From Perna viridis (lineage: Eukaryota), in NCBI GenBank assembly GCA_037379345.1, contig CM074515.1, positions 10,788,001-10,852,000 on the forward strand: a stretch of DNA of 64,000 bases, given 5' to 3'. This document shows, piece by piece, positions 15,001 to 18,000 of this stretch. The position numbers were made by a program. The first letter of the stretch is position 1. Each line of letters begins with the position of its first letter.

Positions 15001-18000
15001 CCTGAAAAACAAATCAGTTACTGAAGTCATTCTACAGAAACCGTAGAAAAAATCCAGAAGAATTGGATCAACAACACAATCAGGCTTAATGCCTATTGAT
15101 TTCCAAGTATCTCATTATGATTCCCAAAGAAATCTTAGTTAACACTGGGCAAACCACACGTGTATCAAGTTTGATATCAGTATTAATTTGTATCGGTAGA
15201 GCTCAACCCATGACTCCATTTTAATCTGTCTTAGAAAATTATAAAAGTCATATTTTATACTTGATGGATATAAATTTAAGGATCATCTTTAGAAATAATG
15301 AAATTGAAGAAAACGACTTATAAGGGGTCATGATTGATTGTTGCGTTATTTATCAAAACAATAATCTTTGTTATAATAACTGACAACTTCCACACCACAC
15401 AAACCATGTGGTTTTTTTTTCTTCTTTCTTCACTGTTGATTAGGTTGTTGCTTTATATTGGGAATTAGAAACAAAAATTGTCATTAAAATTGAAGAGTTT
15501 TGTCTAAAATTAATTGAAGTTGTTTTATGTTATTCTCAATATTGTTCTATAGAATTCTGGATTCCCAACGCATTGAAGTGACGAGAAACAGAGAATGAAA
15601 TAAGTGATGCCTATTGATAAAATATAATTATGGAACTGTTCAAAGAGAATATTTTAAAAAAGGAAGAAATTTAGATATGAACAAAGAAAAAAGGACAGCG
15701 GTGGGAATTATATGAATAAGGAAAAAAGGTATTATAAAGCACACACAATTAAATAAGACTTGGATGTGACCAATCATTTCAATAAAATTTGTATTTCCTT
15801 TTTTCAGAGTTTGATTTTTCCATACAAGCCAAATGGTCGTTATTCAGTGAAGCCTGATGGAACTTTACAGATTGACAATGTACAATCTAATGATGTTGGA
15901 GAGTATGAGTGTGAGGCTCTCAACACTGTCGGCACAGCATCAGCATCTGTTCAACTTAAAGTCAGGGGTAAATAATGTCAAACAATGTTATAGTACTTGA
16001 CAGGGGTCAAAAATTATAAAAATCAGGTTAGCCTTTTGAGCATTTAATGGAGAAGTTTTATGAATGGAAGGGTTAGTTATTGATTAACTTAGAAAAATAT
16101 CCATCTGTCAAGCATTTAATGTTTTCATTGTAAAGTAAGGAAGTGGAATTATTCAGAGAATTATCGTCAATTGAATGAAATGGTTTTTTTTTTAGTTATA
16201 CCAAGTGTTGTAAGGGGGATAACTCATTTCATTTAACTTATTTCTTATTGATCTATCTACTTTCAAACAATTTTTTTTTTAAATGTTTTGTAGAAAATGA
16301 TTCCAGGCCTCCTCCAATCATTAGAATTGGACCACAGAATCAGACCCTGGCTACAGATGAGACTGCCTTTCTCCACTGTGATGCTATTGGTAACCCTACA
16401 CCGACCATCCGCTGGTATAAAAATGGCAATATTTTGTCCCCTGATGATGTTAGAATACAGCAGAAATCTACTGGAACTTTACAAATATCAGGTACTGATG
16501 AGGGATTATTACTGATTACAGTGTTTCATTTCATTTGTTCTCTTTTTGCAGTAGAACATACGATAAGGATTGTTTAATATTGCTCCTAAAAATGTAATCC
16601 TTATTCACTTTATTTCAGGACTAAGTGTTTCTGATACAGGGATGTATGCATGTAAAGCAAGCAGTGAGACAGGGGAAACAACTTGGTCATCTAGTTTAGT
16701 TGTTAGAGGTACATTCAGGCAAATTTAGATCTAGCATAATCATTAATGATAAAACCTTGAGTAATCACTAAATTCATCAATTAAAATCTAATAAAAATAA
16801 TGTATAATGATTCAAATTCATTTTGTGTAGTGTTTAAAATTGTTGAATATGGAAAAATATGAATTAAAAAAACTGCAAAGAAAAATTTTTGTGAAGTTTT
16901 TGTAAAAAATCATACATTGTGTTTCTTGTTACAGTACCTGATGGCAGTTCAGTATTATTTCACCGAACACAGGATCCAAAATACTTTCCAGGACCTCCAT
17001 CTCAACCTGTAGCCATTGAGGTCAAGGACACATCCATCATGTTGTCTTGGAAACCGAACAGTAACTCCGGAGCCTCTCCAGTTTTTGCTTACATTATTGA
17101 GTATTTCAGTCATGAGACCACAGATGTGAGTTTTCCAATTTAACTTTTACCATTATTTATGTATTGTTAACCCTGTTCTTACACTGAATTGTAGAAAGTT
17201 ATAATTTTCATTAATATAATATACTTCCATTTCCATTCCTTTTCACTTGTTTGTTGTAAAAGATAAATCTATTTAGCAATGTGATCATGACTTGCTATCT
17301 AGTTGTGTCTATTATGCTGTGATCTGTTTTGGGTAACTATTGACTAGGTTCTGCTGAATCAAGGTTACAGTTGTCTCTTTTCTGTTTTCAGGGTTGGGTA
17401 GTAGTAAAGGAGACAGTTCAGAAAGAGACACATACAGTTCATAATCTTCAGCCAGAGACACCGTATGTCTTCCTTGTAAAGGCCCAGAACTCTCATGGCA
17501 TTGGTGTACCTAGTCCTATCAGTCAAATTATCTCCACTAAACGTAAGTAGACGAGGCAAATATTGTTGTATAGGTGTACCTTGTCCTATCAGTCAAATAA
17601 TCTCCACTAAACGTAAGTAGACAATACAATATTGTCATATTGGTGTACCTTGTCCAATTAGGAAAGTAATTTATATGAAGCATAAGTGTCTAGACATATA
17701 TAGTATTACAGTCGAACTTCACTCGCTCGAACTCGGATGGCTCGAACACCCGGGATTTCTCGAACACAATTCAAAGTACCAAAATTTTCTCCTATATAAT
17801 TAATATAAATAACCTTGGATTTCTCGAATTTTGATTTCTCGAAAACTTGAACTTACTAGTCGGTCCGTTCGGTAATAAATGTTAGAGAATAACCCTCACT
17901 AACTCAAACTTGTCAGCCATTTTGTCAGCTTGGGTAATAAAAAGTGTGAAAAACTGAAACCCTATCACTAATCAATGTCATTTTAGTTAATTACAGGTAA

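What the first reader, a model, noticed from the sequence alone, without database searches (positions are those of the whole stretch)
17501..17690. Second, independent exon-end + donor echo in the same gene
Seen: the final ~42 nt of the FN3-1 exon, its GTAAGT donor and the adjacent intron are repeated with a ~70-bp period. Copy 2 keeps the donor (17613); copy 3 has lost it (ataagt) and is much more decayed. Read-through again hits a stop (CGT AAG TAG). The sequence is unrelated to the 23.5-kb array but the geometry is the same: the unit straddles the junction, is 70-76 bp long, and decays away from the exon. Inference: two cases among 19 coding introns suggest a recurrent, junction-focused duplication process in this genome. 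Alternatively they reflect a survivorship filter in which only duplications leaving the upstream copy intact persist.
Basis: partly seen in the sequence, partly recalled or inferred. Interest (0 to 1): 0.72.

Follow-up and report, generated by a model that had tools for sequence, protein, structure and literature searches.

The report
Exon-end and splice-donor tandem echo
A 70-base piece spanning the end of one exon and its splice donor in a mussel Robo gene was copied in tandem into the intron, leaving one exact spare donor; this is a known kind of small duplication, not evidence of a new mutational process.

Summary
TRF finds a 70-bp tandem array at 17503-17701. Copy 1 is the last 40 nt of an FN3-coding exon of a mussel roundabout (Robo) gene, its GTAAGT donor at 17543, and 24 more intron bases. 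Copy 2 (17573-17641) keeps an identical donor 9-mer at 17613. Copy 3 (17642-17711) is 67% identical and reads ATAAGT. Reading past the true donor meets TAG at 17548-17550.

The exon end matches the Mytilus Robo1 protein. A second, unrelated 76-bp array at 23506-23824 carries four intact GTGAGT donors.

Within the window, 2 of 19 donors and 0 of 17 acceptors have such an echo. A placement null over 13 tandem-repeat loci expects 0.14-0.19, giving P(>=2) about 0.01. This rests on n=2, was noticed post hoc, ignores that the exon copy is frozen by selection, and disappears if the neighbouring 3.8-kb satellite is counted by position (P about 0.4).

Most likely these are ordinary slippage or unequal-exchange duplications that are tolerated because the upstream donor still gives the normal mRNA. 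Use of a downstream donor would give a premature stop. A junction-focused process is not shown. Which donor is used needs RNA data.

The parts
17392..17542 (+). Exon 9 of the Robo gene as mapped in this window (second half of FN3 domain 1). It is 151 nt and ends in phase 1.
   Evidence: Pfam fn3 E 4.2e-07 on the frame 17344-17550. tblastn of Mytilus Robo1 P0001 residues 568-619, alignment ending ...SQIISTKR vs ...SQTITTDR. AG at 17390-17391 and GT at 17543 read.
17503..17572 (+). Copy 1 of the 70-bp unit: the last 40 nt of the exon, the donor, and the first 30 nt of the intron.
   Evidence: TRF, alignment, blastn.
17543..17548 (+). Authentic 5' splice site GTAAGT (9-mer AAC|GTAAGT).
   Evidence: The exon end agrees with the orthologous protein.
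17548..17550 (+). In-frame TAG, met if the authentic donor is read through.
   Evidence: frame 17344-17550 ends here.
17573..17641 (+). Copy 2 (69 nt), intronic. It differs from copy 1 at 2 of the 50 columns covering the exon-like part and the first 10 intron bases, and at 7 of the last 20.
17613..17618 (+). Copy 2 donor GTAAGT, with the same 9-mer (AAC|GTAAGT) as the authentic site. Its use would add 70 nt containing the TAG.
17642..17711 (+). Copy 3, decayed (47 of 70 identical to copy 1). The donor position reads ATAAGT at 17682-17687.
17543..22348 (+). Intron 9 (4806 nt, phase 1). Acceptor ...tttgttatAG at 22347-22348.
   Evidence: The phase was worked out from the split codon only; the exons were not joined.
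18509..22327 (+). A satellite with a 47-bp unit (compound 78/94-bp periods) that fills most of intron 9 and ends 21 nt before the acceptor AG.
   Evidence: TRF, sequence.
22349..22470 (+). Exon 10 (start of FN3 domain 2).
   Evidence: tblastn of P0001 residues 628-660, sequence.
23401..23566 (+). Exon 12 (second half of FN3 domain 3). It ends in phase 1 and is the host of the other array.
   Evidence: Pfam fn3, tblastn, sequence.
23506..23824 (+). The 76-bp array, 4.2 copies: the last 61 nt of exon 12 plus the donor and 15 intron bases. GTGAGT donors at 23567, 23643, 23719 and 23795. Read-through stop TAA at 23572-23574.
   Evidence: TRF. The frame 23227-23574 ends at that TAA.

Best explanation
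This is a small local tandem duplication, a minisatellite-like array made by replication slippage or unequal exchange. It happened to span the exon 9/intron 9 junction of a mussel Robo gene.

The first copy is still the working exon end and donor, and selection on the protein holds it in place. Copies 2 and 3 lie inside the intron and are relics. Copy 3 is older or faster-decaying and has lost its GT.

Splicing from the first donor removes the other copies with the intron, so the normal mRNA is unchanged. That is why the duplication could persist. Copy 2 still carries a donor identical to the real one. If that donor is used, the mRNA gains 70 nt with a TAG six bases into the insert, and the likely fate is nonsense-mediated decay.

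The 76-bp array at 23.5 kb is a second, independent case of the same thing.

Shown: the repeat, the exon end, the donors, the stop, and the absence of other copies in the window. Inferred: the mutational mechanism, which donor is used, and decay of the long isoform.
For: The copies are head to tail, in register, with no spacer. The unit is local: blastn finds no other copy in the 64 kb. The host frame is an fn3 exon, and its end coincides with the break in the alignment to Mytilus Robo1. The next exon picks up 10-11 residues later, so the first donor gives the productive protein. The intronic copies carry substitutions that the exon copy could not tolerate; for example, the FN3 serine codon AGT reads TGT in copies 2 and 3. 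Read-through meets TAG at 17548-17550. Copy 2 sits in a different frame because 70 = 3x23+1 (frame 17480-17620). Echoes occur only on the donor side, 2 of 19 donors against 0 of 17 acceptors, as expected if only duplications that leave a usable upstream donor survive. Other tandem arrays with periods 20-58 are scattered through the window's non-coding DNA (11 further loci). Tandem repeats at exon-intron boundaries are on record for human genes (PMC2812944, passages read).
Against: Two of 13 repeat loci straddling a donor is more than uniform placement predicts (expected 0.14-0.19, nominal P about 0.01). Differences between copy 1 and copy 2 are unevenly spread: 2 of 50 columns in the exon-like part plus donor against 7 of 20 in the tail (Fisher 0.0016; 0.024 after a scan correction). 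Simple neutral decay of copy 2 does not predict this. In mammalian test constructs, two identical strong 5' splice sites 45 nt or more apart splice almost wholly from the downstream site (PMC3413131, passages). [quoted passage not shown] Harmlessness of the spare donors therefore cannot be assumed. No RNA data were available.
Confidence: 0.68

Rival explanations
1. This genome has a mutational process that preferentially duplicates segments anchored at exon/donor junctions.
For: Two of 19 donors in one gene carry such arrays, with similar unit lengths (70 and 76 bp, the two longest simple periods among the window's arrays). Both are on the donor side, and the acceptor side has 0 of 17. The placement null expects 0.14-0.19, P(>=2) 0.008-0.012.
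Against: The sample is two and the pattern was noticed post hoc. P rises to about 0.03-0.05 once the slower decay of the selected exon copy is allowed for (my arithmetic), and to 0.36-0.42 if the satellite is counted by position. The two exons are homologous FN3 C-terminal halves with phase-1 ends, so the shared geometry is not independent evidence. No mechanism that targets donors for DNA duplication turned up in the papers I read. Selection alone predicts the donor/acceptor asymmetry.
Confidence: 0.1
2. The reiterated donors are kept because they do something. They could act as decoy or alternative 5' splice sites that divert part of the Robo pre-mRNA into a stop-containing isoform (regulated unproductive splicing). 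Alternatively they could be extra U1 binding sites at the start of long, repeat-filled introns.
For: The copy 2 donor 9-mer is identical to the real one, and the 50 columns around it differ at only 2 positions while its tail differs at 7 of 20. All four donors of the 76-bp array are intact although the copies have diverged by up to 25% (19 of 76 columns). Duplicated strong donors are known to compete effectively (PMC3413131; PMC8137991).
Against: In the 76-bp array the donor window is not exceptionally conserved: 14 of 68 nine-column windows are at least as conserved. Copy 3 has lost its GT. After polarising with copy 3, the head/tail contrast in copy 2 is about 2 of 50 against 4 of 20, which is weak (my reading). 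Poly(A) hexamers are no denser at the intron start (2.07 per kb) than in the window (2.69 per kb), and the satellite has none. The region has no stable RNA fold (z +1.98). No cross-species or RNA evidence was available.
Confidence: 0.15
3. The array is an assembly artefact, or it is a defective haplotype that happened to be assembled.
For: No reads could be inspected. A human junction duplication is a null allele (PMC9052919).
Against: The copies differ by 9 and 23 of 70 columns. That is not what a collapsed or stuttered assembly gives, and it implies age. Every mapped exon of the gene is open and 63-100% identical to Mytilus Robo1.
Confidence: 0.04

Closest known systems
Internal tandem repeats at exon-intron boundaries in human genes within segmental duplications (De Grassi and Ciccarelli 2009, PMC2812944; passages read)
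   Same: Tandem units straddle an exon-intron boundary, so each unit carries splice-site sequence and the repeat can change where the exon ends.
   Different: The human cases were defined by copy-number differences between paralogues and by transcripts, and often create new introns or add coding repeats. Here there is one gene, no transcript or population data, and the extra copies are non-coding.
[quoted passage not shown]
   Same: The exon end, the GT and the intron start are duplicated in tandem, giving two identical donors. Use of the extra donor, or retention, gives a frameshift and a premature stop.
   Different: The FGG allele is pathogenic and recent. The OCT1 allele is a common polymorphism with about 35% lower expression. 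The mussel arrays have diverged copies, so they are old and evidently tolerated, and their splicing outcome is unknown.
Intron gain by tandem duplication of an exonic AGGT proto-splice site (review PMC3443670; Drosophila cases PMC2891723; passages read)
   Same: A short tandem duplication inside a gene supplies duplicated splice signals, and nonsense-mediated decay can buffer mis-spliced products.
   Different: That model duplicates exon sequence and creates a new intron the size of the duplication. Here an existing 4.8-kb intron at an orthologous position was only lengthened, and the junction reads AAC|GT, not AGGT.
Competition between duplicated strong 5' splice sites in test constructs (Hodson et al. 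2012, PMC3413131; passages read)
   Same: Two identical consensus donors lie tens of bases apart on one pre-mRNA.
   Different: These were artificial globin and adenovirus substrates with short introns in human extracts and cells, where the downstream site wins. Here the productive site is the upstream one and the introns are about 3.1 and 4.8 kb.

Membership tests
Junction-spanning tandem duplication (tandem repeat at an exon-intron boundary) | Head-to-tail copies in register with no spacer | tested here: met
   TRF period 70, 2.9 copies; alignment.
Junction-spanning tandem duplication (tandem repeat at an exon-intron boundary) | The unit contains a real exon end and its 5' splice site | tested here: met
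   fn3 match. The alignment to Mytilus Robo1 breaks at 17542-17544 and resumes in the next exon. GTAAGT at 17543. There is no transcript evidence.
Junction-spanning tandem duplication (tandem repeat at an exon-intron boundary) | Copy number varies between individuals or paralogues | not testable with these tools
Alternative 5' splice site coupled to nonsense-mediated decay | A second consensus donor downstream whose use brings in an in-frame stop | tested here: met
   AAC|GTAAGT at 17613 is identical to the authentic 9-mer. TAG at 17548-17550.
Alternative 5' splice site coupled to nonsense-mediated decay | Transcripts that use the second donor, stabilised when decay is blocked | not testable with these tools
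   No RNA data.
Intron gain by tandem duplication of an AGGT proto-splice site | A new intron bounded by the two copies, about the size of the duplication, at a position with no intron in relatives | tested here: not met
   The intron is 4806 nt, far larger than the 70-bp unit, and runs to an acceptor at 22348 outside the array. The exon end falls where the alignment to the Mytilus protein breaks. The junction is AAC|GT.
Dispersed repeat or transposon-borne satellite | The unit recurs elsewhere | tested here: not met
   blastn of 17493-17711 against the whole window gave only the internal matches; the best outside hit had E 0.008 over 38 nt. Only this window was tested.
Roundabout (Robo) receptor gene (the host gene) | Five Ig domains, three FN3 domains, a transmembrane segment and a long cytoplasmic tail, with Robo proteins as best hits | tested here: met
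   Exon-by-exon Pfam: Ig/I-set on 7 frames, fn3 on 4, a TM-like match on 1. The Ig1 exon hits proteins named roundabout, best 89% to Mytilus galloprovincialis. P0001 aligns along 3.4-33.4 kb.

The most novel reading that the evidence does not exclude
In this mussel, exon-end-plus-donor modules are reiterated at the starts of long introns either by a recurrent process or because selection keeps them. The resulting rows of identical 5' splice sites would then act as decoys that set how much productive Robo mRNA is made (through stop-containing isoforms), or as extra U1 landing sites. The uneven conservation of copy 2 (2 of 50 differences around the donor against 7 of 20 in the tail) and four intact donors in the 76-bp array would be its footprint.
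Probability: 0.1. Interest if true: 0.6.

Novelty: new member of a known kind. Interest (0 to 1): 0.3.

Why it matters
As it stands this is a tidy example of how a gene tolerates a small duplication across a splice junction. The upstream copy carries on, the downstream copies rot, and the intron grows.

It offers two modest things. First, it is a natural test of 5' splice-site choice. Two identical strong donors (four in the other array) sit 70-76 nt apart, and the productive one is upstream. That is the opposite of what mammalian test constructs prefer. Second, it provides a cheap genome-wide statistic, echoes at donors compared with acceptors and with deep intron. That statistic would show whether mussel genomes, which are rich in short tandem arrays, lengthen introns this way more often than chance.

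Tried and rejected
- **RNA structure separating the two donors.** The fold of 17480-17720 is weaker than shuffles (z +1.98; 198 of 200 shuffles fold at least as well). Rejected.
- **Known RNA families or tRNA-derived elements.** Rfam found 0 matches at gathering scores in the whole window. ARAGORN found 0 in 17000-24500.
- **Dispersed repeat or transposon origin of the unit.** No other copy in the window. ORFs in 18.0-18.5 kb have no Pfam match.
- **Intron gain by duplication.** Does not fit (see membership test).
- **Special conservation of the donor in the 76-bp array.** Its nine-column window ranks 14th of 68. Not exceptional.
- **U1 shielding against intronic poly(A) sites.** Hexamer density is not raised.
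- **A tiny 30-nt intron, 17543-17572, between copy 1's donor and the AG before copy 2.** Considered. It is too short, and it would add 40 nt and shift the frame. Rejected by reasoning only.
- **Gao and Lynch 2009 (PMC2791625).** Probably the nearest general treatment, but it is not held. I know it only from the reference list of PMC3443670.
- **Left unchecked.** Orthologous introns in other mussels, population copy number and transcripts.

Full report
**What the window is.** The window has no N and about 32% G+C. The + strand from about 3.4 to 33.4 kb carries a roundabout (Robo) receptor gene.

Pfam scans were run exon by exon. They give Ig/I-set matches on seven frames, fn3 on four, and a transmembrane-like match on one. 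The Ig1 exon alone, searched against longer proteins, returns 29 hits at E<=1e-10. The named ones are roundabout or sax-3 proteins, plus one Patella protein labelled hypothetical. The best is Mytilus galloprovincialis Robo1 (P0001, 89% identity).

I take the contig for a mytilid mussel, not human. tblastn of P0001 against the window lays out the exons. I refined splice sites by eye on the flanks. This gives 19 donors: 3794, 7177, 8051, 12940, 15967, 16491, 16708, 17125, 17542, 22470, 23036, 23566, 26795, 27206, 30071, 31523, 32581, 33049 and 33400.

The spliced model was never joined. Every search used a single exon's translation or a database protein against the window. Continuity across introns was judged only from phases and from where the alignment to P0001 breaks and resumes. 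There is no transcript evidence, and P0001 is itself a predicted protein.

**The observation.** The exon in question is 17392-17542 (151 nt, ends in phase 1) and encodes the second half of FN3 domain 1. Its alignment to P0001 ends ...NSHGIGVPSPISQIISTKR against ...NSHGIGNPSLFSQTITTDR.

The next exon starts at 22349 after ...tttgttatAG. There, 10 poorly conserved linker residues precede the conserved DEIRTRMSG, against 11 in Mytilus.

TRF finds a 70-bp array from 17503. The three copies are:
- Copy 1, 17503-17572: 40 exon bases, then GTAAGT, then 24 more intron bases.
- Copy 2, 17573-17641.
- Copy 3, 17642-17711.

Differences over 70 columns are 9 for c1-c2, 23 for c1-c3 and 23 for c2-c3. The c1/c2 match has blastn E 4e-25. 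Copy 3's 47 of 70 identities in register has P 1.2e-11, and none of 5000 random 70-mers from the window scores as well.

Copy 2's donor 9-mer AAC|GTAAGT (GT at 17613) is identical to the authentic one. Copy 3 reads AGC|ATAAGT. Reading through the real donor gives CGT AAG TAG, with TAG at 17548-17550.

**The companion array.** At 23506-23824 a 76-bp unit covers the last 61 nt of exon 12 (FN3 domain 3, phase 1), then GTGAGT and 9 more intron bases. It is present 4.2 times.

All four donors are intact: TAG|GTGAGT, TAG|GTGAGT, TTG|GTGAGT and TAG|GTGAGT. Read-through stops at TAA 23572-23574.

The copies fall into two pairs: c1-c2 with 3 differences, c3-c4 with 8, and 15-19 across pairs. The array therefore grew in several in-register steps, which is typical of slippage or unequal exchange once a repeat exists.

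The two arrays share no sequence. Both sit at the same structural place, the C-terminal strands of an FN3 domain ending in a phase-1 intron, so their common geometry is partly inherited from the gene's modular build.

The last 60 nt of each exon was aligned to the next 500 nt (match +1, mismatch -1, gap -2).
- Scores are 37 at 17542 and 56 at 23566.
- The other 17 donors score 7-14.
- The 17 acceptors in the mirror test score 8-13.

For background I used positions every 25 nt that lie outside exons, the two arrays and the satellite. Of these, 9 of 2127 reach 35 and 29 of 2127 reach 25. This gives P(>=2 of 18) between 0.003 and 0.025. With the 47-bp satellite counted by position, the rates are 158-179 of 2283 and P is 0.36-0.42.

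Counting events is fairer. There are 13 TRF loci with period >=20. I placed them at random, allowing exon overlap only by the first or the last unit. This gives 0.14 donor-straddling loci for the whole window, P(>=2) 0.008. For the gene span with 5 loci it gives 0.19, P(>=2) 0.012.

Three cautions apply:
- The sample is two.
- The pattern was picked out after reading.
- The exon half of a junction echo is frozen by selection, so it stays recognisable about twice as long as a purely intronic pair. Doubling the expectation gives Poisson P about 0.03-0.05 (my arithmetic).

The local excess is suggestive and no more.

**What it most likely is.** It is a small tandem duplication across a donor junction. 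Splicing from the first donor removes the later copies with the intron, so the mRNA is unchanged and the intron is simply longer.

The intronic copies then decay. Copies 2 and 3 both read TGT where the exon keeps the conserved FN3 serine codon AGT, and copy 3 has lost its GT.

The same logic predicts few survivors on the acceptor side, where the upstream copy of the acceptor would pull intron sequence into the message. The count of 2 against 0 fits this but does not prove it.

The unit is not a dispersed element in this window. No known RNA family or tRNA-like gene lies there. The region has no stable fold.

**What does not fit so neatly.** First, the c1-c2 differences are clustered: 2 of 40 in the exon-like part, 0 of 10 in the donor and the next four bases, and 7 of 20 in the tail. 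Fisher's test gives 0.0016, and the probability that some 20-column window holds 7 of the 9 differences is 0.024.

Polarising with copy 3 splits the tail changes about evenly between c1 and c2. Copy 2's head (about 2 of 50) is then slower than its own tail (about 4 of 20), but only weakly so. Constraint on copy 2, patchy conversion from the exon copy, or an indel-prone AT-rich tail could each explain it.

Second, spare donors are not automatically harmless. In human extracts and cells, two identical strong donors 45 nt or more apart splice almost entirely from the downstream one (PMC3413131, passages). [quoted passage not shown] An 8-bp donor duplication in OCT1 diverts up to half of minigene transcripts, which are then degraded in liver (PMC8137991, passages).

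If the downstream rule held here, Robo would be largely non-productive. Yet the gene's exons are all open and conserved, and the arrays are old enough to have diverged. Either the upstream donor wins in this context or a share of the output is lost to decay. Only RNA data can tell.

**Comparison with what is known.** Tandem repeats at exon-intron boundaries that alter splicing are described for human genes in segmental duplications (PMC2812944).

Tandem duplication is also an accepted route to new introns through duplicated AGGT sites (PMC3443670; PMC2891723). This case fails that model's defining features: the intron is 4.8 kb, sits at the orthologous position, and its junction is AAC|GT.

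Bivalve genomes are reported to be full of short dispersed satellite-like arrays (PMC7492417, search listing and start of abstract only). This fits the number of arrays in this window.

My searches turned up no paper that claims a donor-targeted duplication process or surveys such echoes in molluscs. This is a statement about those searches in the held library only, and supplements were not opened.

**Verdict.** It also has a real but unproven possibility that the reiterated donors matter for splicing.

Not checked, for lack of any open eukaryotic collection: orthologous introns, copy-number polymorphism, reads and transcripts.

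Noticed in passing
window 18509-22327 (and 22328-22348): A 3.8-kb satellite with a 47-bp unit (compound 78- and 94-bp periods) fills most of intron 9. It stops 21 nt before the acceptor AG, so the branch point probably lies in the last satellite unit. It carries no AATAAA or ATTAAA on the + strand.
   Followed up: partly
window 17702-18508: An 807-bp stretch lies between copy 3 and the satellite. 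It opens with several ...CTCGAAC... motifs, has no other copy in the window, and its ORFs have no Pfam match. It may be the flank of a mobile element that brought the satellite.
   Followed up: partly
window 22349-22380 compared with P0001 residues 620-630: The linker between FN3 domains 1 and 2 is unrelated in sequence to the Mytilus protein over 10 against 11 residues, while both flanks are 65-87% identical.
   Followed up: no
window 50713-52833 (-) and 59998-61665 (-): Two paralogous genes of about three exons each lie in tandem on the minus strand. They are 29-34% identical (E 9e-19 and 6e-22) and have hydrophobic segments. One has an Asp run and a His/Lys/Arg repeat (12-bp TRF array at 52393-52437). 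None has a Pfam match.
   Followed up: partly
window 42311-45442 (+) and 54294-54863 (+): Fragments of retroelement-like ORFs. One frame gives a weak reverse-transcriptase match (RVT_1, E 5.8e-04, below the cut-off). 43054-44201 also holds near-repeated segments on the minus strand.
   Followed up: no
window 8177-8303: A 42-bp tandem array (2.9 copies, 71% matches) starts 126 nt after the donor of the Ig3 exon. It is close to a junction but does not span it.
   Followed up: no
window 17573-17612: Copy 2's exon-like 40 nt is bounded by AG (17571-17572) and GT (17613), so it looks like a mini-exon. The gap from the real donor is only 30 nt, and including it would shift the frame.
   Followed up: partly
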